Origin: Gammaproteobacteria bacterium
GTDB lineage: Bacteria; Pseudomonadota; Gammaproteobacteria; Eutrophobiales; Eutrophobiaceae
Direction: 5' to 3'
NCBI GenBank assembly: GCA_965240365.1
Contig: OZ251218.1
Location: 2,254,356 to 2,318,355, forward strand
DNA: 64,000 nucleotides
Shown: positions 8,213-60,214 of the stretch, in pieces
How positions within the stretch are numbered: position 1 is the stretch's first letter
How the letters are laid out: each line of letters begins with the position of its first letter
Position numbers and translations under genes: made by a program
The notes under the pieces: model-generated
Seen by the model: only the letters and a program-made list of their open reading frames with translations
Databases searched by the model: none
Told to the model about the DNA's origin: nothing

Positions 8213-10793
8213 GATTCCCCCCGGACGGATTCTGCCAGATTAAAAAGGCGGGCAGTACCAGCAGCGTGGCGATCATCATCGAAATCAGGCCGGTTGCGAG
8301 CAGCAGGCCCATACTGGCCGTGCCGAGGTGCGCCGAAAAGGCCAGATTGCCGATGCTGAATACGGTCGTCAGCGAACTGATGATCACGCCGCGCGTGGCG
8401 CTGGTGCTAAAGATATTGCGCTTGTGGCCCTGTTCCTGCCGAAAACGATCCGCGATATGGATCGCGCTATCGACGCCGATGCCGAGCAGCAACGGCAGGC
8501 CGATGATATTGGCGAAATTGAGCGGGATCTTAAACAGCAGGATAAGGCCGGCGGTAAAGAGCCCGCCGGTCAGGACGGTCAGCAGTATCAACACGGCGTC
8601 CCGCTTGACCCGGACCAGCAACAGCAGCAATAGCGTGATCGCGATCAAGGCGTAGCTGAACGCGGAGGTAAACGCCGCGATCACGGCCTCGCCGGCCTCG
8701 ACCCGGATAACGGGCAGGCCGGTCACGGCCGCGTCTTTTGCCTGTAGCTGCCGGACAAAACGCGCGATGGCCGGATTATCATTCAGGTCTTCCTTTGGTT
8801 GCAGTTGCAGTTTATAAACCCCGTCGCTGAGCCAGCGATCACGCGCATCGTCCGGCAGGCTGTCCAGAGTAACCGGCCCGGCCGCGAGCGCGTCATTCAG
8901 GCCGTCGATGCGCCCGTTCAGGTTGCCGAGCATCCGTTGTTCAATGTCCGGCAGCCGCTCAGGGGCGAGCAGGGCGCGGTTTAGATTGGCATACAGCCTG
9001 TCAAGCCGCGCGCCGCGGTTTTCCTGGCTGACAGTTTCAAGCCGCGCCAGGAATTGCCGGAGCGCCGCGGTCCGCGTTTCGTTGTTAATCCCGGGGCCTG
9101 CCGCCATCTCCAGCGGCCCCATAAACAGGTTCATGTCATCAATAATAAATAATTTTTCCTGCTGGTTTTGGGGGATCAGATCGGGCAGCCAGATCACATC
9201 GTCAACCAGTTCCAGCGCCGCAAATTCCTCTTTAGCCCGTTTGGCCTCGGGTATTGATTTTTTTAACAGCAGGCCGTGCCAGGGCGAGTTGTCAGGCTCG
9301 CTTAAAAGGTCTCTATAGGTTTGCACCGATTCATTTTCGGGGTCTTGTAGATTGAGCGGATTAAAATCAAAATTCAGCCGGTGTATCTGCGAAAGCGCCG
9401 CCGCGCCAAGCAGGGCGGCGACCAGCAGTATTTGTTTTGGATAGCGGTACGGTATGCGGCTCAGGCGGTCTGCCAGGGCGGCGATGCGCTGGTTGGCGGG
9501 GCGGGGTCGGCAGGGTTTCAGGCTTAACAGCGCCGGCAGCAACAGGAAGGTATAGAGCACGCTGATGAACATGCCGCTGCCGGCTATCCAGCCCAGTTCG
9601 GCCACGCCCTCATAGTCTGTCGGGATAAACGAGTAAAAGCCGATCGCCGTGGTCAGCGCGCATAAGGCCAGGGAGCGAAAGAGAGTGAGGCCGGCGGTCT
9701 TTAATGCGCCCTCCGGTCTTGCGCCGGATAAGATCTGTTCCCGGTAGCGCAGCGTCAGGTGAATGGCAAAATCAATGCCGAGGCCGATATACAATACCGC
9801 AAAGGCCACCGAGATCAGGTTCAGTTCGCCGACCGTGAGCGTGGCAAAGGCGGTGGTCGCAATCAGCCCCATTAATAATGTTATGAGACAGGCGCCGACC
9901 AGCCACCATGATCCCAGTCCGAGCAGCAACAGGCCGCTGACCAGTATGATCGAGGCGGCGATCGCCACGGTATTGGCCTTTGCCACACTTTGCAGTTCTT
10001 CATTGGCCAGCGCCACGCTGCCGGTCAGGCGGATATTCGTATTGCCGCGGTTCAGATCGAGCGCGGCGCCGGCCGCGCGTATCTGGCGGATAGCCTCGGC
10101 CCCCGGCAGGAAGCCGGCCCCCGGTTCCACTTCCAACAGGATGAATTCACGGTAAACCGCCTTTTGTGCGCTGTTGACAGCCATCAACCTTTGCCAGGAA
10201 ACGGGATAGCGCTCATCTTCCAGGCTGCGGTTCAACTCGGCCAGCAGGGCGTCAATGTCAATATCCTCGCCGGCCTCAATGGCCTGCAAGGCGTTGTCCA
10301 GCATGGCGAACAGGCCGCGCAGGTTATTATCCTGCAACAGCGCGCCGAGGAAGGGCTGAATCTGCGCGAGTTGATCTGCCAGGCTTTGCAGTTCTGTTTC
10401 CTCAAGAAACAAAAAGGCGGATTCACGGAAAAAAGGCAGCGCCGGCGGGTAATAAACCGATTTGATCCACTCCGGTTCGGAAGCCAGCGCCCGCGTCAGG
10501 CGCAGGGCGCTGTCGGCGGCCTCGTCCGGCGTGGCGGCTTCGACCACGACCAGGATGGTATTGACAAACTGCGGAAATAATCTTTCATATTCGATATCCA
10601 GTTTGCGCCAGTCCAGTTCCTCGGACAGCATATCGGCCGTATCGGCGCTCATGCCGAGGTTGTCTTTGATATAGAAGACAGCGCCGAGCGTCAGCGCGAT
10701 GACGCCGAGAATAATGGCAAGACGGCGCCGTTCCACGAACGTTATCCAGCCCGTAATGAATCGCTCCGGCCATGTCGGGGATGATGGGCGCAT
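8199..10793 (-). CDS. hpnN: MMPL/RND-superfamily exporter, HpnN-like (hopanoid transporter)
   Basis: 864 aa, 12 TM in two 6-TM bundles with large periplasmic loops; last gene of the sqs-shc-hpnG operon; gene symbol from context and size. Confidence 0.7.
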   Translation of the reverse strand: MRPSSPTWPERFITGWITFVERRRLAIILGVIALTLGAVFYIKDNLGMSADTADMLSEELDWRKLDIEYERLFPQFVNTILVVVEAATPDEAADSALRLTRALASEPEWIKSVYYPPALPFFRESAFLFLEETELQSLADQLAQIQPFLGALLQDNNLRGLFAMLDNALQAIEAGEDIDIDALLAELNRSLEDERYPVSWQRLMAVNSAQKAVYREFILLEVEPGAGFLPGAEAIRQIRAAGAALDLNRGNTNIRLTGSVALANEELQSVAKANTVAIAASIILVSGLLLLGLGSWWLVGACLITLLMGLIATTAFATLTVGELNLISVAFAVLYIGLGIDFAIHLTLRYREQILSGARPEGALKTAGLTLFRSLALCALTTAIGFYSFIPTDYEGVAELGWIAGSGMFISVLYTFLLLPALLSLKPCRPRPANQRIAALADRLSRIPYRYPKQILLVAALLGAAALSQIHRLNFDFNPLNLQDPENESVQTYRDLLSEPDNSPWHGLLLKKSIPEAKRAKEEFAALELVDDVIWLPDLIPQNQQEKLFIIDDMNLFMGPLEMAAGPGINNETRTAALRQFLARLETVSQENRGARLDRLYANLNRALLAPERLPDIEQRMLGNLNGRIDGLNDALAAGPVTLDSLPDDARDRWLSDGVYKLQLQPKEDLNDNPAIARFVRQLQAKDAAVTGLPVIRVEAGEAVIAAFTSAFSYALIAITLLLLLLVRVKRDAVLILLTVLTGGLFTAGLILLFKIPLNFANIIGLPLLLGIGVDSAIHIADRFRQEQGHKRNIFSTSATRGVIISSLTTVFSIGNLAFSAHLGTASMGLLLATGLISMMIATLLVLPAFLIWQNPSGGNHGRG

Positions 10794-25985: not shown

Positions 25986-26029
25986 GATCGTAGGGAGCAA
26001 GACCACATGATTCACACAAGGAAACTCTG

Positions 26030-26202
26030 ATTTAATCAGAGTTTCCTGCGGCACAGGGAAGTGCCGCCCCAAGATCAATAACTTGGCAATGACGTCAGTC
26101 ATTTGATTTTGAAGTAAGGTGAAAATCGCATTTTCGCCTTGCGCGCTCTGACCTGCCTGCAGCAGGCAGGTGAGTCCTGGATGGACTTATTCAGAGCTTC
26201 CA
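26030..26202. mobile_element. MITE family B copy (inverted orientation) in the hflX-hflK intergenic region
   Basis: ggaaactctgatttaatcagagtttcc ... aggtgaaaatcgcattttc ... ctgcctgcagcaggcagg ... tcctggatggacttattcagagcttcc; flanked by ACAA on both sides (putative 4-bp target-site duplication). Confidence 0.65.
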
Positions 26203-33639: not shown

Positions 33640-34110
33640 TGTGAGATAAATCAGGGCTGCCTGCTGCCAGTAGGCGCCTTGCCAGCCGGAACAGTGTGTT
33701 TGGTTGTCATTCCCGCTTTCGCCGGACGGCTACGGGCATCCTCGGCAGCTTGTTCCTGACACTGCTCTACCACCTACGTCCTGTAGGCGTGCCCTCCCTG
33801 CCTGCTGCAGGCAGGTCGCCGCATACAGGACTTCCTGTCCATAAATGACGGTAGGGGCGGAATGTCCAAGTTCAACAACATACAAGACAAATCAGGGAGG
33901 TAGGGAATCCGTAGAACTGCCTGCAACAAGCAGGTTAGCGCAGATTATGTGTTGTTCTGTTTGGCCTGTTGCTGACGGGCGGGAATGATGGAAAGTGAAT
34001 TTCAGCTACGTCGTCATTCCGGCGAAAGCCGGAATCCAGGACAGTAGGGCCGGAGAGTGAAATAGATTACGATTCTGTCTGCCTGCCTGCTGCCAACAGG
34101 CTACAGGCAG
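33640..34110. repeat. Palindromic repeat cluster
   Basis: ctgcctgctgccagtaggc, gtcattcccgctttcgccggacgg, ctgcctgctgcaggcagg, ccataaatgacggtaggggcgg, cgtcattccggcgaaagccggaatccag modules. Confidence 0.6.
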
Positions 34111-34116
34111 GCAAGA

Positions 34117-34287
34117 CGCTCACGCACCTGCTCGGGCGTGACGGCGCGGGATGGATCGGCTTTCAGCGCGTCATAAGCCGGACCGACCTGGTTATGAAGC
34201 CAGGCTTCCACGGCGCGATCACGCGCAAGCAGCGCCCGCAGACCATCGCGGATGACTTCGCTCTCGCTCGCATACTCTCCTGTTGCC
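34117..34287 (-). pseudogene. ParD-family antitoxin remnant (C-terminal ~56 aa only)
   Basis: Minus-strand translation GEYASESEVIRDGLRALLARDRAVEAWLHNQVGPAYDALKADPSRAVTPEQVRERL matches the ParD consensus (GRYGSASEVIRAGLRLLE...); in-frame TAG right upstream, no start, no parE partner. Confidence 0.5.
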
Positions 34288-34441: not shown

Positions 34442-34711
34442 ATGACTGACTTACTTGCAACTGAAAAGACCTATCTAGCTGATCACCAATCCGAACTTGT
34501 GCAGAAACACCCCGGCAAATTCCTGTTGATAAAGGGAAAAGCCGTACATGGCGCTTTCCAGACTTACGAACAGGGTGTGATCGAGGGAACGGCGCGGTTC
34601 GGCGCCGGCCCCTTCCTGGTTCGCGATGTCTCTGCCACTTCTGATCCCGAAGCCCCGAACATACCGGCCTTGTCCATTGGGCTGCCGTTCACCCGCCTTG
34701 CCGATAATTAA
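34442..34711 (+). CDS. Small conserved protein (89 aa) that precedes a retropepsin-like protease; family not confidently assigned
   Basis: Substitutions against the partial duplicate at 35811-36037 are almost all synonymous in this frame, supporting protein coding. Confidence 0.6.
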   Translation: MTDLLATEKTYLADHQSELVQKHPGKFLLIKGKAVHGAFQTYEQGVIEGTARFGAGPFLVRDVSATSDPEAPNIPALSIGLPFTRLADN

Positions 34712-34728
34712 CCCGAAAGTCCAGGCCC
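34501..34728. repeat. Copy 1 of a 228-bp direct duplication (second copy at 35811-36037)
   Basis: About 94% identity; one 1-nt indel at the left edge; copy 1 lies within the small-protein gene. Confidence 0.9.
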
Positions 34729-34754
34729 AAATCCTGGACGCAAAGGGCAAAAAA

Positions 34755-35183
34755 GTGCCGCTTACCGGCAGGGCGGGCCTCCGGGATGCCGGCCCCAAAA
34801 TTAAGCTCGCGCTATCATCGTTGGAATCACAACTGCAGACCCTTGCTGATCGCGGTAAAACACCGCCCGCCCCGGTGGCCGGCTGGGGCATCATCGACAC
34901 GGGCGCCTGTGTCACCTGCGTGGATGAAACTGCGGCACGCAATGCTGGCCTGGCAACCGTGGATACGGGGCCGATTGCCTCGGCCACCCACGACAATCAC
35001 ACGGTACCCATCTTCGCCGGCCAACTTGATGTGGCCGGCATTCCTCAGAACATCAATATCTATCGTGCCTACGGCGTGAACTTGGAAGCTCAAGGACTTA
35101 TCGCGCTGATAGGGCGTGATGTGCTCGCCAACTGCATTCTGGTGTACAACGGTCTGGACGGATCGTTTTCGCTCGCGTTGTAA
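34755..35183 (+). CDS. Retropepsin-like (clan AA) aspartic protease
   Basis: GIIDTGACVTCVDETAARNAGL contains the D-T-G-A catalytic motif with the hydrophobic-hydrophobic-D-T-G-A context of retropepsins; about 140 aa. ORF track gives 34626-35183, but the overlapped 5' part reads better in the upstream gene's frame, so a GTG at 34755 is proposed; start uncertain. Confidence 0.55.
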   Translation: MPLTGRAGLRDAGPKIKLALSSLESQLQTLADRGKTPPAPVAGWGIIDTGACVTCVDETAARNAGLATVDTGPIASATHDNHTVPIFAGQLDVAGIPQNINIYRAYGVNLEAQGLIALIGRDVLANCILVYNGLDGSFSLAL

Positions 35184-35324
35184 CTTCCACGCCGCCGTGC
35201 TGGCGACTTTTGGCTTGTCGGATTGTGTACGTAGCGGATGACCTGCCTACTACGGACTAAAGAAGGCCGTGATCCGATTTCGGTCCATGTCCGCCGGGAA
35301 TAAAGTACGGCTTGTGCGGGCGGA

Positions 35325-35594
35325 CTAAAATTCGGACGCTATTGCCATATCGTAATTAGTCTGCATATTCATCCAGTAGGCCAGAGTGGTATTGAAGGCG
35401 CGGGCAAGCCGCAGGGCGGTGTCCGGCGTCATGCCGGTCGCTCCCTTGACAAGCCGCTCAATCCGCGTGCGCGGCACACCCAGGCGGCGGGCAAGGGCAA
35501 TGGCCCCCATATCCAGGGGCACAAGGTAAAGTTCTTGCAGAACTTCGCCGGGGTGCATGGGGGCTTTGAGCAGGCTCATGGACTTAATCCTCAT
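35325..35594 (-). CDS. higA: HigA antitoxin (XRE-family HTH)
   Basis: MHPGEVLQELYLVPLDMGAIALARRLGVPRTRIERLVKGATGMTPDTALRLARAF is the canonical HigA HTH; ATGA start/stop overlap with higB. Confidence 0.85.
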   Translation of the reverse strand: MRIKSMSLLKAPMHPGEVLQELYLVPLDMGAIALARRLGVPRTRIERLVKGATGMTPDTALRLARAFNTTLAYWMNMQTNYDMAIASEF

Positions 35595-35860
35595 CAGTGG
35601 TAATCGCTAATCTCAACATCAGCGGGGCCGTTCGGCGTCCAGACAAGGCAAATATGCCATTGGCGATTGATCCGCACGGCATGTTGCCCGGCCCGGTCGC
35701 CTTTCAGTGCTTCCAGCCGGTTACCCGGCGGAAGGCGTAAATCCTCCACGACAACCGCGGTATCCAGGGCCGTGAGCAGCGCCCGCGCGCGCTTTCTGCC
35801 TTGATATACCGCAGAAGCACCCCCGGCAAATTCCTGCTGATCAAGGGAAAAGCCGTACAT
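35594..35860 (-). CDS. higB: HigB toxin (RelE/ParE superfamily) with a chimeric N-terminus
   Basis: C-terminal LKGDRAGQHAVRINRQWHICLVWTPNGPADVEISDYH matches HigB. The first 13 codons (MYGFSLDQQEFAG) are encoded antisense to copy 2 of the 228-bp duplication. Confidence 0.65.
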   Translation of the reverse strand: MYGFSLDQQEFAGGASAVYQGRKRARALLTALDTAVVVEDLRLPPGNRLEALKGDRAGQHAVRINRQWHICLVWTPNGPADVEISDYH

Positions 35861-36037
35861 GGCGCTTTCCAGACTTACGAGCAGGGCGTGATCGAGGGAA
35901 CGGCGCGGTTCGGCGCCGGCCCCTTCCTGGTTCGCGATGCCTCTGCCACTTCTGACCCCGAAGCCCCGAACATCCCGGCCCTGTCCATTGGGCTGCCGTT
36001 CGCTCGCCTTGCCGATAATTAACCCGAAAGTCCAGGC
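35811..36037. repeat. Copy 2 of the 228-bp direct duplication; carries a 5'-truncated paralogue of the 34442-34711 gene (ORF 35801-36022)
   Basis: Alignment to 34501-34728; the reading frame is preserved with only synonymous changes. Confidence 0.9.
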
Positions 36038-36056
36038 TCCGGCCTTTGCGAACAGG

Positions 36057-36362
36057 CTAAGATGCGGATGCGGCTTTTGCGGCCTTGATGAGGTCTGCTG
36101 TGCGCAAGGGTTCGGGTACGTATTCAAGCGCATCCCCGTCCTGTGTAACCGCCGCCCGGCACATCTTCACGGTGCGCAGGGGTTTGGGCATAAATTTCAA
36201 CTTCACGTCTGTTGCAAAAAATACGAGGATTGCGATGCCCCCTAAGATCAGGAGAACCGTTGGATATCCTTTTACTACCAAATTAAAGATTGATAGATAG
36301 ATCAAGTATCCTATGATTCCGTAAAATATCAGCAAGATGAATCTGGAACTTCCTATAGACAT
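36057..36362 (-). CDS. Small 2-TM membrane protein encoded at the 3' edge of the low-GC island. The reading frame runs on into flanking high-GC DNA, which resembles a DUF4116-repeat fragment
   Basis: N-terminal 60 aa (two TM helices) is AT-rich; C-terminal AVTQDGDALEYVPEPLRTADLIKAAKAASAS is GC-rich and DUF4116-like; 37 bp downstream of the 742-aa gene on the same strand. Confidence 0.4.
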   Translation of the reverse strand: MSIGSSRFILLIFYGIIGYLIYLSIFNLVVKGYPTVLLILGGIAILVFFATDVKLKFMPKPLRTVKMCRAAVTQDGDALEYVPEPLRTADLIKAAKAASAS

Positions 36363-36399
36363 AGCGATCTTTTCTATTTTTAGTTAATTTGGTACAAGG

Positions 36400-38628
36400 C
36401 TAATTTTCTTCATATTGCTTCTGGAAATCTGACTGAAGTTGTGTAGAAGCTTCTGCAAGCAACACTTTGGCTCGCGAATCATCAATTTCATCATATACTT
36501 CTTTGGCTTTTGAAATTATCTTTTTGAAGGCATCTTCATCCATCCTATTACCGAGTTTTACTCCAAGCATAGAAGGAAAGATTTTGTCGTAACTACTTTG
36601 GACAGACTTTGCAGAAGGAATTGATGCAAGATAATGGATCAGAAACTCAGGCCGCATCATATATCGCGCGCCCTCTTTCGATACTAAGCTTCTAGTAGCA
36701 CTTTGAACTCTCGTTTGCTGTGTTAACCACCACGTTTTGAATCCATAAGGGTTTCCACCACTGCGTTCACTATCGACTCTACGTTTTTGAAATATGCGCA
36801 GTATAGTTAAAGCAGCGTTTCTTGATAAGATTTCTTCGCTCGCGTTATCTCTATCAATTCTATTGCGGTTATTTTTAATGTCGGATGTAAGCTGATTTAG
36901 ATCGGTTTTATTTACACCTGACAACATTTCAGCTTCGTTTTCATAGTAGAAACCGAACTCGTTTATTAGATACTCTCTTAATTCATCTCGTGAGGATGGT
37001 TTAGTAATCCTGTTTACTGTGAGAAACTTACCTAAGTAGGTTTGCCATCCAGATAGTGAATTGTTCTTAGATACTGGCTTAAGTTTGGCATAAAAGTAGG
37101 CACGTATTAAAATGCGATCAATATGGCTAGCAAGCGTTAAGTCGATATAATTTTGAATATTTTCATAATTGTTTACAAACTCAAAGTGAGTTATTTTGAG
37201 ATGATTCCACACTTCGTCGAGCGTTTTCTCCGTTAGAGCTAGTTTCGATCCAGCCGTTTTGAGAAGCTTTAAAGTATTTTTGGTCTTCTGATCTTCTTTC
37301 ACGAGCATTTGCTCTGACAATGCCTCTACAATCAAGTCAGCACCAATGTAGAGATTAAAGTTTGAGGTCATTCTTCTAAAATATTCCAAGATCCGAGGTT
37401 CATTTTTCAGCATGAAAAGAAGAATATATGTTCGGGATAACTTACGAAAGTAGCGTCTCTCTACTTCCGAACTGTTATAGTAAGCACCTCGTAAAATACT
37501 TGAACAGGTCTGGAAAATGAGTTCGGCATTTTTACCGACAAGTCCTTGATCTTCAATTTCTCGGCCCAGAAAATCTTTGATTAAAGGAAGATCGCTATCA
37601 CTTCCTTCTGCACGCTCTAGGAAAAGCACGATCTCAAGCCCTTGAGCGTGAAATGATCGATGTATAACATTATGACAGATTTCGACGCACTGTTCGATTA
37701 TTTTTGTGTTATTTGTCGCCAAGGACGTATTCTGAGCTGCTCGATTGCGAAAGATATTACTAACGTCTTGCTTTAGCGCTTCGTCCTTAACATTTTCATC
37801 GTGGATCATCTTTCTAGTTTCATAAGGCAAGCAATATCCCTTCTCTTTTCGATGATAGTTAACTTTCCGTCCGCCGTTTCCTTTGGTAGTTAGTGCATTA
37901 ATTCTATGCTTGACAATACCTCTAAAGAAAGTTTTAGCGGATGGTAGCGTCTCAATTACGCGCGTTTCAATATTGGAAAGCGATAGAAATTTACCCTTAT
38001 CAGGATCTGTTCCTTCAAGCGACCAAAGAATTAAACTATCAGTCACTGTTTCAAGAAGTTCAGTTTTCCCGCGCTGGCACTCAAGTTCCTGCCCAAGGAA
38101 CACAAAAAGTGTTTTTGCTGGAAGGCCTTGGATAGTGTTGGGCACATACCCTGTGCCGATGCCTTCCAGAAAAGAAGCTGCATCAGCAACGTATGTTTTG
38201 TAGGCTTGTAGTGCACCCGGAGTGTTGTTGATATGAGATTGGAAGTAATATCCATCTCGAATAACAATTCGACAGTCTAGTTCATCGCTAAGTTCATCCT
38301 GAATTTTATCTATCAGAGTTAGCTTTTGGTTAGTAGCGTAGATCAAACTCTTTGGATCGCGATCAAATTCTCTAAGTCGTTTTAGAGTTTTGCGAATCTT
38401 TGTCTTAGGTTCTACTGTAACGGATGCTTGCATGAACTTTTGAGTGCCACCTGCTTCGAAAATGCGATCATCTATCACCCCGTCAGCACCACCATCATGA
38501 AAACCTCCCATAGGCACATAGTCGACACCAATAGAAGACGCAAAGAACTCTTGTGCGAACTTTTCGAAATTGACTCCTTCCACTTTCGACAACGCAATTT
38601 CAATTACTCTTGTATCGACAATATCCAC
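36400..38628 (-). CDS. Uncharacterised 742-aa protein with N-terminal Mrr-type restriction-endonuclease-like (PD-(D/E)xK) domain and a long alpha-helical C-terminal region
   Basis: FEKFAQEFF...GVDYVPMGGFHDGGADGVIDD...FMQASVTV...SLIYATNQKLT follows the Mrr_cat pattern (FE..l.....G.....DgGiDg....vQcK....ilvTt); no P-loop; region GC about 40% against 62% background. Confidence 0.75.
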   Translation of the reverse strand: MDIVDTRVIEIALSKVEGVNFEKFAQEFFASSIGVDYVPMGGFHDGGADGVIDDRIFEAGGTQKFMQASVTVEPKTKIRKTLKRLREFDRDPKSLIYATNQKLTLIDKIQDELSDELDCRIVIRDGYYFQSHINNTPGALQAYKTYVADAASFLEGIGTGYVPNTIQGLPAKTLFVFLGQELECQRGKTELLETVTDSLILWSLEGTDPDKGKFLSLSNIETRVIETLPSAKTFFRGIVKHRINALTTKGNGGRKVNYHRKEKGYCLPYETRKMIHDENVKDEALKQDVSNIFRNRAAQNTSLATNNTKIIEQCVEICHNVIHRSFHAQGLEIVLFLERAEGSDSDLPLIKDFLGREIEDQGLVGKNAELIFQTCSSILRGAYYNSSEVERRYFRKLSRTYILLFMLKNEPRILEYFRRMTSNFNLYIGADLIVEALSEQMLVKEDQKTKNTLKLLKTAGSKLALTEKTLDEVWNHLKITHFEFVNNYENIQNYIDLTLASHIDRILIRAYFYAKLKPVSKNNSLSGWQTYLGKFLTVNRITKPSSRDELREYLINEFGFYYENEAEMLSGVNKTDLNQLTSDIKNNRNRIDRDNASEEILSRNAALTILRIFQKRRVDSERSGGNPYGFKTWWLTQQTRVQSATRSLVSKEGARYMMRPEFLIHYLASIPSAKSVQSSYDKIFPSMLGVKLGNRMDEDAFKKIISKAKEVYDEIDDSRAKVLLAEASTQLQSDFQKQYEEN

Positions 38629-38749
38629 TCAGTGATCTCTAATTAAGATAGCGATAGTTTTATGATAACATCACATATCGCCAACGTTGTCAATAAAAGA
38701 ATGATCTGAAGTTCTCTCATTTTTTGCCCTAGAGATAAAACTAAAACAA

Positions 38750-38905
38750 TACTCCATCGTCATTTATGGACAGAGGTGAAGTGAAATATTCGTTGTCATT
38801 CCGGCCTGTCTGCCGCAGGCAGGCGAAAGCCGGAATCCAGAAGGCGGCGCCAAGGTGGTGTATGGACTCCCGCCCGTGCCTGACTGCGGCAGGCAGGAAA
38901 CCCTG
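38750..38905. repeat. Palindromic repeat cluster at the right border of the low-GC island
   Basis: tcgtcatttatggacagaggtg, gtcattccggcctgtctgccgcaggcaggcgaaagccggaatccag, ctgactgcggcaggcagg. Confidence 0.6.
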
Positions 38906-50869: not shown

Positions 50870-51490
50870 TAATTCCAGCCCCGTCGTCATTCCAGCGAAA
50901 GCTGGAATCCAGGAGGGTAGTCCGGGGTACTATAGTGGAAGCTCTGAATAAATCCATCCTGGATTTCTCAGAGCACGCAAGGTGAAAATGCGATTTTCAC
51001 CTTGCTTCAAAATCAATGATTTGCATCATTGATTTTGGCGGTACGTCCCTGTACCGCAGGAAACTCTGATTCAATCAGAGTTTCCTAGTGAATTGCAGCT
51101 TCCACCTGCCTGCGCCAGACCGGTCTGAATGGTGTGTTTGGTTGTCATTCCCGCAAGCGGGAATGTATAACATAAACCACTGGATTCCGGCTTTCGCCGG
51201 AATGACGGAGGGGGCGATAGCAGGTTTTTCGTCATTCTGGTCGGCCCCGTTGGTTACTCTTGACGCATTCCCGGGAGCAGCACTTTACCGTCATTCCGGC
51301 GAAGGCCGGAATCCAGGAGAGCGGGGGTGGAGTGTTGGATGAATTCCGGCTTTTGCCTGCTTGCACCGGACTTACCGGAATGGTGTGTTTGGTTGTCATT
51401 CCCGCTGGGCCTGTCACAGGCAGGAAGGTGAAAATCGCATTTTCATCTGGCGCGCCCTGAAAATCCAGGATGGACTTATTCAGGGCTTCT
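50870..51490. repeat. Repeat cluster containing a MITE-B copy plus dRS3-like palindromes and a partial MITE-B end (51420-51490)
   Basis: gtcattccagcgaaagctggaatccaggag; gtcattcccgcaagcgggaatg; cgtcattccggcgaaggccggaatccaggag; aggtgaaaatcgcattttcat...tccaggatggacttattcagggcttc. Confidence 0.65.
50937..51086. mobile_element. MITE family B copy (150 bp, near-identical to 60066-60214)
   Basis: ggaagctctgaataaatccatcctggatttctcagagcacgcaaggtgaaaatgcgattttcaccttgcttcaaaatcaatgatttgcatcattgattttggcggtacgtccctgtaccgcaggaaactctgattcaatcagagtttcc; TAGT on both flanks (putative target-site duplication). Confidence 0.7.
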
Positions 51491-60007: not shown

Positions 60008-60065
60008 GGTTTTGGCCGGCGCCTTTTAATCGGGAAATTACAATTATAAGACAGGATTGTATTGA

Positions 60066-60214
60066 GGAAGCTCTGAATAAATCCATCCTGGATTTCTCAG
60101 AGCACGCAAGGTGAAAATGCGATTTTCACCTTGCTTCAAAATCAATGACTTGCATCATTGATTTTGGCGGTACGTCCCTGTACCGCAGGAAACTCTGACT
60201 CAATCAGAGCTTCC
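60066..60214. mobile_element. MITE family B copy (149 bp)
   Basis: 97% identical to 50937-51086; TTGA on both flanks (putative target-site duplication). Confidence 0.7.

What the first reader, a model, noticed from the sequence alone, without database searches (positions are those of the whole stretch)
35594..35872. higB toxin gene with chimeric 5' end antisense to the duplicated segment
The HigB-homologous region (from about GASAVYQGRKRARALL to ...EISDYH) ends exactly at the edge of duplication copy 2. The only available ATG (35860) gives 13 N-terminal residues (MYGFSLDQQEFAG) encoded antisense to the paralogous small-protein gene fragment. HigB is therefore N-terminally replaced by the rearrangement and may be inactive, or higB genuinely overlaps the other gene antisense. 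higA is intact with the classic ATGA overlap.
Basis: partly seen in the sequence, partly recalled or inferred. Interest (0 to 1): 0.5.

Follow-up and report, generated by a model that had tools for sequence, protein, structure and literature searches.

The report
Deletion-truncated higB toxin pseudogene
This is the decaying remnant of an ordinary HigB/HigA toxin-antitoxin pair: two small deletions removed the toxin gene's promoter, start codon and first 27 codons. Its apparent new start is an accident of one strain, so it is an ordinary dead toxin gene, not a new overlapping gene.

Summary
The higB-like ORF (35594-35860, minus strand) has a foreign N-terminus encoded antisense to a 5'-truncated second copy of a small gene. 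A related contig (L002) keeps the undamaged layout: the small gene and higB-higA are transcribed divergently from a 186-nt spacer.

Against L002 the window carries two deletions:
- A 140-nt deletion removes the small gene's first 59 nt (19 codons and two bases) and upstream DNA.
- A 170-nt deletion between two copies of AAAGCGCGC removes the higB promoter-like site, an operator-like palindrome, the ATG and codons 1-27.
- Fifteen nt of the old spacer survive between them (35796-35810).

HigB homology therefore starts at K23, not at 'GASAVYQG'. The in-frame ATG exists only because this strain has one extra base in a C5 run (35820-35824). Sister loci differ: L003 is out of frame, L004 has an in-frame TAA, L001 has a different deletion, and L031 has lost the whole segment.

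The remnant also has His at the Arg73-equivalent site and evolves near-neutrally. In the closest solved homologue, GraT, removing 22 N-terminal residues abolishes toxicity. higA keeps its core domain but lacks the family's 12-residue C-terminal tail, and the overlap is TGATG, not ATGA.

Verdict: a toxin pseudogene in a degrading TA module. This is a known phenomenon of low interest.

The parts
35594..35795 (-). higB remnant: codons 28-93 of the ancestral 93-codon gene (35597-35794) plus the TGA stop (35594-35596). It corresponds to K23-H88 of the 88-aa ORF.
   Evidence: 94% identical to intact HigB P0002/L002 over 66 aa. Pfam PF05015 matches profile positions 28-82/91 only. DNA alignment A2.
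35787..35795 (-). 9-nt microhomology AAAGCGCGC at the junction of the 170-nt deletion. That deletion removed the higB promoter, start codon and codons 1-27.
   Evidence: In L002 the 9-mer occurs at 9911-9919 (spacer) and 10081-10089 (higB codons 27-30). The window keeps one copy.
35796..35810 (.). 15-nt island of the ancestral small-gene/higB intergenic spacer (GGTATATCAAGGCAG on the minus strand). It encodes residues 17-22 of the chimeric ORF and contains the TTGATA hexamer of the small gene's promoter-like site.
   Evidence: 14/15 match to L002 9896-9910, in the correct order and orientation.
35811..36022 (+). 5'-truncated second copy of the small gene (small2'). Its first 59 nt (19 codons and two bases) and its promoter are missing. 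Its antisense strand supplies M1-S16 of the chimeric ORF.
   Evidence: 93% identical to residues 21-89 of small1. Copy differences are 7 synonymous: 2 non-synonymous codon changes in this frame. Alignments A2 and A7.
35820..35824 (.). C5 homopolymer run, one base longer than in copy 1, L002, L003, L004 and L031. This single base puts ATG 35860 and ATG 36133 in frame with the higB remnant.
   Evidence: Alignments A4, A5 and A7. Frame analysis.
35858..35860 (-). Fortuitous ATG of the 88-aa chimeric ORF. It lies inside antisense small2'. The same MYGFSL... antisense frame is open in copy 1 with no higB attached.
   Evidence: ORF list: the 173-aa antisense ORF 34475-34996 contains MYGFSLYQQEFAG.
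35325..35579 (-). higA antitoxin gene, 84 aa, with a GAGGA Shine-Dalgarno at 35588-35592. The HTH core is complete. The C-terminal 12-residue tail of the family is replaced by EF*.
   Evidence: TIGR02607 antidote_HigA 99.6 bits, positions 3-79/81. Pfam HTH_3. Nearly all listed homologues are 96 aa. The homology break with L002 is after codon 82.
34442..34711 (+). Intact small gene (small1, 89 aa). It belongs to a conserved family with no Pfam match.
   Evidence: 37 homologues of 85-111 aa, mostly 87 aa, with a conserved GPFLVR motif. No Pfam, NCBIfam or PADLOC match.
34698..35183 (+). Retropepsin-like aspartyl protease gene (161 aa, TTG start). It overlaps small1 by 14 nt and is the conserved operon partner of the small gene.
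   Evidence: Weak Pfam gag-asp_proteas match, E 0.0012. Lies immediately downstream of the small gene in 20 of 25 loci from other genomes. Gene call in L003/L004.
34510..34726 (+). Direct repeat copy 1 (3' two-thirds of small1 plus the first ~10 codons of the protease).
35821..36037 (+). Direct repeat copy 2, 95% identical to copy 1. It ends about 10 codons into a lost second protease gene.

Best explanation
The locus is a degrading HigBA (GraTA-like) type II toxin-antitoxin module whose toxin gene is a pseudogene.

The ancestral layout is preserved in the related contig L002. There, a small gene and higB-higA are transcribed divergently from a 186-nt spacer. The spacer holds a sigma-70-like promoter and a GTATCA-N5-TGATAC palindrome directly before the higB ATG.

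In the window's lineage two deletions occurred:
- A 140-nt deletion took the small gene's first 59 nt (19 codons and two bases) and its upstream DNA.
- A 170-nt deletion between two AAAGCGCGC repeats took the higB promoter, the palindrome, the start codon and codons 1-27.
- The two truncated genes are now fused head-to-head, with 15 nt of old spacer between them.

The lost HigB segment is the beta1-alpha1-loop. In studied relatives this segment contacts the ribosome and is required for toxicity.

The 88-aa ORF with the MYGFSLDQQEFAG start arises only because this strain has one extra base in a C5 run. That base brings a chance antisense ATG into frame.

Shown: the deletions, the junctions, the strain-to-strain variation and the substitution patterns. 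Inferred: loss of toxicity and loss of native transcription.

higA survives with its DNA-binding core and appears still constrained. It is an orphan, slightly shortened antitoxin/repressor.
For: Ancestral layout and deletions:
1. Intact relative: L002 encodes a 93-aa HigB, 94% identical over the retained 66 residues. An 89-aa small gene lies divergently upstream and a 96-aa HigA downstream.
2. DNA alignment A2 shows the two deletions, the 15-nt spacer island and the 9-nt microhomology. Coordinates come from L002.
3. The deleted 170 nt contain TTGATA-17-TACATT with a TG extension (9966-9994). They also contain the inverted repeats at 9958-9995 and the ATG at 10001.
4. No minus-strand promoter-like site was found in window 35200-36500.

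The chimeric ORF is not conserved. Five loci from the same sample show five different states of this junction:
5. The window has +1 C and is in frame.
6. L003 has the same junctions but no extra base. The frame has no start before the conserved part, and higA is split by a 152-nt repeat element.
7. L004 has the same junctions plus an extra T, giving an in-frame TAA.
8. L001 has a larger deletion and a different antisense-derived N-terminus, MFGASGSEVAETSRTRKGPAPN.
9. L031 has one hybrid small gene, with protease, higA and higB' all gone.

Selection:
10. Repeat-copy differences are 7 synonymous: 2 non-synonymous codon changes in the small-gene frame. In the higB' frame they are 2: 7.
11. pN/pS is 0.6-1.4 in pairs involving a window-, L003- or L004-type remnant. 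For L001 vs intact L002 it is 0.11. For higA it is 0.04-0.27.
12. Remnants carry changes at near-invariant positions: R->H in QWRI (window, L004), and G->S, H->Y and A->V in L003. L->P (L003, L004) is at a variable position.

Function:
13. The closest solved homologue is P. putida GraT, 6f8s_B, E 2.8e-24.
14. Delta22GraT does not inhibit growth and does not cleave mRNA. HigB alpha1 is important for 16S rRNA recognition in the ribosomal A site (PMC6393540).
15. The window lacks the equivalent of GraT residues 1-32.
16. The R->H change falls at the Arg73 equivalent of P. vulgaris HigB. That residue contacts the scissile phosphate, and R73A slows cleavage 11-fold (PMC5027501; alignment).
17. AlphaFold2 on the intact protein gives pLDDT 92.7, with alpha1 at 8-14 and alpha2 at 27-39. 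In the chimera, residues 1-20 score pLDDT 44-52 and have no beta1/alpha1.
Against: 1. The retained part keeps the invariant Glu (E50 of the 88-aa ORF), the C-terminal D-Y-H catalytic motif and an open frame. A weak GGAAAG lies 4 nt before ATG 35860. A translated product is therefore not excluded.
2. The two upstream genes (36057-36362 and 36400-38628) are on the same strand. Read-through transcription could reach higB' and higA. The terminator-like hairpin at 36042-36024 is no better than chance.
3. L002 is not the orthologous chromosomal site, so the ancestral state at this exact locus is inferred rather than observed.
4. Substitution counts are small (1-8 per comparison) and alleles show signs of recombination, so pN/pS values are only indicative.
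5. The extra base in the C5 run could itself be an assembly error. That would not change the verdict.
Confidence: 0.9

Rival explanations
1. The chimeric 88-aa protein is a functional toxin or neo-protein. higB genuinely overlaps the small-gene fragment antisense and uses the new N-terminus.
For: The frame is open with an ATG and a weak purine-rich stretch upstream. The D-Y-H motif and most of the fold are retained, with pLDDT 83-92 from residue 21 on. In GraT the N-terminus is disordered anyway.
Against: 1. The fusion frame is unique to this strain. L003 is out of frame, L004 has a stop, L001 has a different fusion and L031 has lost the region.
2. Selection acts on the opposite strand's frame.
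3. The promoter and operator are deleted.
4. Delta22GraT is non-toxic, and this truncation is larger.
5. The Arg73-equivalent residue is mutated.
6. The same antisense frame is open in copy 1 with no higB attached.
Confidence: 0.04
2. A recent tandem duplication or rearrangement of the small-gene segment landed in higB and replaced its 5' end.
For: A 217-nt direct repeat flanks protease-higA-higB'. The HigB homology ends within 16 nt of the gapped repeat edge.
Against: 1. L002 shows a complete small gene already next to an intact higB in this orientation, and the window retains 15 nt of their spacer. The junction was therefore made by deletions, not by a duplication endpoint.
2. The copies are 5% diverged, mostly at synonymous sites. 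They were separate functional paralogues for some time.
3. Copy 2 also carries the start of its own lost protease gene.
Confidence: 0.05
3. Assembly artefact: the junction or the frame is a mis-assembly or a homopolymer error in a long-read metagenome assembly.
For: The only difference that creates the in-frame ORF is +1 base in a C5 run. This is a typical long-read error. The sister contigs come from a long-read-style assembly with 1x-17x coverage labels.
Against: The two deletion junctions are reproduced in three independently assembled contigs: the window, L003 and L004. If the extra base is an error, the remnant simply has no start codon, which strengthens the pseudogene verdict.
Confidence: 0.15

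Closest known systems
GraT-GraA (HigBA-family) of Pseudomonas putida, PDB 6F8S
   Same: It is the closest solved homologue of the intact relative (E 2.8e-24 for the toxin, 1e-15 for the antitoxin). It has the same toxin-first gene order with an HTH-XRE antitoxin. Its experimental Delta22 truncation is non-toxic and is the best functional analogue of the natural truncation here.
   Different: The natural truncation is larger: 27 residues, equal to GraT 1-32. Those residues are replaced by 22 unrelated residues. The promoter and operator are also deleted, and the antitoxin lacks its C-terminal tail. In GraA that tail extends helix alpha5 and caps the other monomer.
HigB-HigA of Proteus vulgaris plasmid Rts1 (PDB 4MCT, 4PX8, 4YPB)
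   Same: It has the RelE-like ribosome-dependent mRNase fold, a C-terminal D-Y-H motif and an Arg73-type residue in the (N/Q)WRI strand.
   Different: It is only distantly related in sequence (E about 3e-4). Here the general-base position carries Glu instead of His54. The window has His at the Arg73 position and lacks the beta1-alpha1 region that contacts 16S rRNA.
Degraded chromosomal TA loci with orphan antitoxins (for example the parE pseudogene with ParD in Caulobacter, and frameshifted YacB in Shigella), reviewed in PMC7354431
   Same: The toxin is inactivated while the antitoxin ORF persists. The locus sits in a variable island alongside other TA remnants.
   Different: Here the inactivating events can be reconstructed base by base, and five co-occurring allelic states were recovered from a single metagenome sample.

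Membership tests
HigB-like toxin (Pfam PF05015, RelE/ParE superfamily) | Sequence match above the Pfam gathering score | tested here: met
   38.7 bits against a cut-off of 27, E 1.5e-09.
HigB-like toxin (Pfam PF05015, RelE/ParE superfamily) | Complete domain including the N-terminal beta1-alpha1-loop segment | tested here: not met
   Only profile positions 28-82/91 match. Homologue alignments show the first 27 residues replaced. The AF2 chimera has no beta1/alpha1, and residues 1-20 score pLDDT 44-52.
HigB-like toxin (Pfam PF05015, RelE/ParE superfamily) | Catalytic residues: C-terminal D-Y-H, the general-base position (His54 in P. vulgaris, Glu here) and the Arg73 equivalent | tested here: inconclusive
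   D-Y-H and the invariant Glu are present. The Arg73 equivalent in QWRI is His in the window.
HigBA operon (type II TA, toxin-first order) | Toxin gene immediately upstream of an HTH-XRE HigA antitoxin gene | tested here: met
   The higB stop at 35594-35596 is followed by higA at 35579-35325. TIGR02607 scores 99.6 bits against a cut-off of 47.7.
HigBA operon (type II TA, toxin-first order) | Own promoter/operator upstream of the toxin gene | tested here: not met
   The promoter-like site and palindrome present in L002 (9958-9995) lie inside the 170-nt deletion. No minus-strand promoter-like site was found in window 35200-36500.
HigBA operon (type II TA, toxin-first order) | Toxin arrests growth and antitoxin neutralises it | not testable with these tools
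   Only indirect evidence is available: Delta22GraT is non-toxic (PMC6393540).
HigA antitoxin (TIGR02607 equivalog) | Full-length protein as in its subfamily (96 aa with a C-terminal ...VDVSGIEPL tail) | tested here: not met
   The window HigA is 84 aa and ends ASEF*. Nearly all of the 120 listed homologues are 96 aa. The DNA homology break is after codon 82.

The most novel reading that the evidence does not exclude
The remnant may have been domesticated rather than being merely dead.

The shortened HigA appears to be under purifying selection (pN/pS 0.04-0.27). It could persist as an orphan antitoxin giving 'anti-addiction' immunity against intact higBA modules. One such module, about 94% identical over the retained HigB residues and 95% over HigA residues 1-82, circulates in the same microbial community (L002).

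The non-toxic HigB' might be read through from upstream genes. It could then act like Delta22GraT, binding HigA and tightening its DNA binding.
Probability: 0.08. Interest if true: 0.4.

Novelty: new member of a known kind. Interest (0 to 1): 0.17.

Why it matters
It matters mainly for annotation.
- The 88-aa ORF (or the 179-aa ORF from ATG 36133) should be labelled a higB pseudogene or fragment, not a toxin and not an antisense overlapping gene.
- HigA should be flagged as a C-terminally shortened orphan antitoxin.

There is also a modest illustrative value. Strains recovered from a single metagenome sample show successive steps in the loss of a TA module:
- promoter and 5' deletion by microhomology;
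- frame drift in a homopolymer run;
- insertion of a repeat element into the antitoxin gene;
- final excision by recombination between flanking repeats.

None of these steps is mechanistically new.

Tried and rejected
- Scanning genome contigs with the single small protein confirmed no relative. The family alignment was needed instead.
- Scanning JGI metagenome contigs for the exact deletion junction, allowing both indel variants, found nothing. The junction is known only from ENA sample ERZ25067570.
- Exact look-ups of P0121 (identical to the window's HigA) and P0138 returned no record. P0138 is a second, differently truncated HigA on the same 3.66-Mb contig. That second locus could not be examined.
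- Cluster look-up gave no organism names.
- The small protein has no significant match in Pfam, NCBIfam or PADLOC. The protease has only a weak Pfam gag-asp_proteas match and none in NCBIfam or PADLOC. I considered filing the small protein under DUF5678-like families from memory but found no support, so I dropped the idea.
- I noticed a faint resemblance between MYGFSLDQQEFAGG and the family's MI.SF.D..TE..F.G N-terminus. I rejected it as coincidence. The same antisense peptide exists in copy 1 with no higB attached, and the frame is broken in sister strains.
- A Campbell-type integration (att-like repeats flanking an island) was considered for the 217-nt repeats. The enclosed segment is only 1.3 kb with no recombinase, and L002 shows copy 2 was once a whole gene. 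Simple paralogy followed by deletion is preferred. L031 shows the repeats do recombine.

Full report
**What is at the coordinates**

On the minus strand an ORF ends at 35594-35596 (TGA) after ...NGPADVEISDYH. It can start at ATG 35860-35858, giving 88 aa. Pfam recognises HigB-like_toxin (PF05015) at 38.7 bits against a cut-off of 27. The match covers only profile positions 28-82 of 91.

Directly downstream lies an HTH-XRE gene that matches the HigA equivalog TIGR02607 at 99.6 bits against a cut-off of 47.7.

A 217-nt direct repeat (34510-34726 and 35821-36037) is 95% identical. It occurs exactly twice in the window, and shuffles gave no matches.
- Copy 1 is the 3' two-thirds of an 89-aa gene, small1 (34442-34711, plus strand), plus the first codons of a retropepsin-like protease gene (34698-35183).
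- Copy 2 is a 5'-truncated second copy of the same small gene.
- The first residues of the 88-aa ORF are encoded antisense to copy 2.

**Is the N-terminus foreign?**

Yes. A search with the 88-aa protein found 3056 relatives. The best cover only 75% of the query, residues 23-88.

In the alignment, full-length relatives are about 93 aa and begin MIQSTKGKLAA.AVKGKYGKGFPSDLVKR. The window reads MYGFSLDQQEFAGGASAVYQGR and then joins the family at KRARALLTALD.

**The ancestral arrangement and how the chimera arose**

The closest full-length relative is P0002, 93 aa and 94% identical over the shared 66 residues. It lies on a 150-kb contig, L002, from ENA sample ERZ25067570.

In L002 an intact 89-aa small gene and higB-higA are transcribed divergently from a 186-nt spacer. 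Aligning this DNA with the window and reading L002 shows two deletions in the window.

Deletion 1:
- It corresponds to L002 9756-9895, 140 nt.
- It removes the first 59 nt (19 codons and two bases) of the small gene and its upstream DNA.

Deletion 2:
- It is 170 nt and lies between two copies of AAAGCGCGC (L002 9911-9919 and 10081-10089).
- It removes a sigma-70-like site, TTGATA-17 nt-TACATT with a TG extension (9966-9994).
- It removes overlapping inverted repeats that include GTATCA-N5-TGATAC (9958-9995).
- It removes the higB ATG (10001) and codons 1-27.

Between the two deletions, 15 nt of the old spacer survive (window 35796-35810, a 14/15 match). They encode residues 17-22 of the chimeric ORF.

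The repeat edge and the HigB edge are therefore close but not identical. The cause is deletion across a head-to-head gene pair, not a duplication endpoint.

**The chimeric ORF is an accident of one strain**

Other contigs from the same sample carry the same island. In the window, L001, L004 and L031 the island lies between dapB and the PNPOx gene, while L003 lies in a different genomic context (TonB receptor upstream; transposase, Fic and Wadjet genes downstream).

| Locus | State of the junction |
|---|---|
| Window | Both junctions plus one extra base in the C5 run at 35820-35824. ATG 35860 and ATG 36133 are in frame. |
| L004 (1.5-Mb contig, same synteny including the 742-aa gene) | Both junctions, no extra base, one extra T. 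An in-frame TAA lies three codons before K; the only later starts in frame are TTG/GTG codons inside the conserved part. |
| L003 | Both junctions, no extra base. The higB frame has no start before the conserved part. higA is split by a 152-nt palindromic repeat element. |
| L001 | A larger deletion joins GCGCCGAAC in the small gene to CGCGCGCGG in higB. The called protein (P0001) has a different antisense-derived N-terminus, MFGASGSEVAETSRTRKGPAPN. |
| L031 | One hybrid small gene: 5' part and flank like copy 1, 3' part and flank like copy 2. No protease, higA or higB'. This is the expected product of recombination between the two repeats. |

The extra base may even be a homopolymer error. 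Either way, the fusion is not conserved.

**Selection**

The nine codons that differ between copy 1 and copy 2 split as follows:
- 7 synonymous and 2 non-synonymous in the plus-strand small-gene frame;
- 2 synonymous and 7 non-synonymous in the antisense higB' frame.

The same antisense frame is open for 173 codons in copy 1, where no higB is attached. A long antisense ORF is therefore simply a by-product of this sequence and its codon composition.

For the higB remnant, pairwise pN/pS is 0.6-1.4 in pairs involving a window-, L003- or L004-type remnant. For L001 vs intact L002 it is 0.11. For higA, pN/pS is 0.04-0.27. Counts are small, so these values are only indicative.

The remnants carry changes at near-invariant family positions:
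- R->H in QWRI (window and L004);
- G->S, H->Y and A->V (L003).

An L->P change (L003 and L004) lies at a variable position.

**Functional inference**

The closest solved homologue is P. putida GraT (6f8s_B, E 2.8e-24). P. vulgaris HigB is a distant relative.

In GraT, deleting the first 22 residues abolishes growth inhibition in both E. coli and P. putida, and abolishes mRNA cleavage. [quoted passage not shown]

By the alignment, the window lacks the equivalent of GraT residues 1-32.

The window's R->H change is at the equivalent of HigB Arg73. That residue contacts the scissile phosphate, and R73A slows cleavage 11-fold (PMC5027501).

AlphaFold2 results:
- The intact P0002 model has mean pLDDT 92.7, with a beta bridge near residue 5, alpha1 at 8-14 and alpha2 at 27-39.
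- In the chimera, residues 1-20 score pLDDT 44-52 and lack beta1/alpha1, while the rest resembles the intact fold.

Together with loss of the promoter, I infer a non-toxic and probably untranscribed remnant. This inference is not shown directly. Two co-directional genes lie upstream and there is no convincing terminator between them and higB', so read-through transcription cannot be excluded.

**higA**

- The first in-frame ATG (35594) shares one base with the higB stop, giving TGATG rather than ATGA.
- Gene callers on L001, L002 and L004 start at the second ATG (35579), 8 nt after GAGGA.
- The 84-aa product covers TIGR02607 positions 3-79 of 81.
- Nearly all of the 120 listed homologues are 96 aa and end ...ASGEVDVSGIEPLVGA. 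The window, L001 and L004 end ASEF*, because homology with L002 breaks after codon 82.
- In GraA this C-terminal stretch extends helix alpha5 and caps the partner monomer.

'Intact' is therefore true for the core domain but not for the full protein.

**Context**

The gene orders hflK-hflC-DUF2065-hisZ-purA and grpE-dnaK-dnaJ-dapB flank a variable island at about 33.6-38.9 kb. From my own knowledge, these orders are typical of Gammaproteobacteria. The organism itself is an unnamed MAG chromosome of 3.66 Mb.

The small gene and protease form a conserved two-gene unit. The protease lies immediately downstream of the small gene in 20 of 25 loci from MAGs of many phyla. higBA is not linked to the pair in those loci.

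**Comparison with known systems and verdict**

This is a member of the HigBA/GraTA family in a degraded state. Degraded TA loci that leave orphan antitoxins are well documented (PMC7354431).

The antisense-overlap alternative is not supported. The finding is ordinary and of low interest. It has some value for annotation and as a clean allelic series of TA decay.

Noticed in passing
window 34442-35183; loci L005-L028: The 89-aa small protein has no Pfam, NCBIfam or PADLOC match. With the overlapping 161-aa retropepsin-like protease it forms a conserved two-gene unit. The protease lies immediately downstream of the small gene in 20 of 25 loci from MAGs of Alpha- and Gammaproteobacteria, Nitrospirales, Bryobacterales, Binatia and others. 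The function is unknown. It sits among TA remnants here.
   Followed up: partly
window 34104-34283 (minus strand): A ParD/RHH-like antitoxin gene is also 5'-truncated in the window. Only residues 25-84 remain. About 175 nt present in L001 and L004 are deleted at window position 34283. This is a second deletion across a divergent gene pair.
   Followed up: partly
window 36040-38900: An AT-rich islet (GC 0.36-0.45 against about 0.60) carries a 742-aa ORF (36400-38628, minus strand) with no Pfam or NCBIfam match. It has only a weak PADLOC match to an N-terminal REase-like region (E 1.4e-4). It is shared with L004 and replaced by Fic and DUF4116-like genes in L001 and L031. It may be a defence cargo.
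   Followed up: partly
window 36057-36362 (minus strand): This 101-aa ORF is itself chimeric. Its C-terminus (...ALEYVPEPLRTADLIK...) matches the end of a repeat-containing 174-aa gene in L001. Its N-terminal half is AT-rich, hydrophobic and unrelated. This marks the island boundary.
   Followed up: no
window 50937-51085, 60065-60214, 26020-26151; L003 11006-11157: A family of ~150-nt palindromic (MITE/REP-like) repeat elements is present. One copy splits higA in L003. Copies or fragments also occur in L030 and L031. Other short repeats from window 33658-34106 recur throughout the window and in L002, L030 and L031.
   Followed up: partly
L031 10767-11036: At the same dapB-PNPOx locus a sister strain has a single hybrid small gene and lacks protease-higA-higB'. 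This indicates recombination between the 217-nt repeats.
   Followed up: yes
L002 9958-10001: In the intact module the promoter-like -10 hexamer ends 6 nt before the higB ATG. This suggests a leaderless or very short-leader higB mRNA. A GTATCA-N5-TGATAC palindrome overlaps the -10 and is a candidate HigA operator.
   Followed up: no
outside the window, same 3.66-Mb contig (protein P0138): A second HigA remnant of 85 aa is 99% identical over 88% of the query. It then diverges after ...WMNMQT into RACLHYVGRPA. The genome therefore holds another decayed higBA-derived locus. It could not be retrieved.
   Followed up: no
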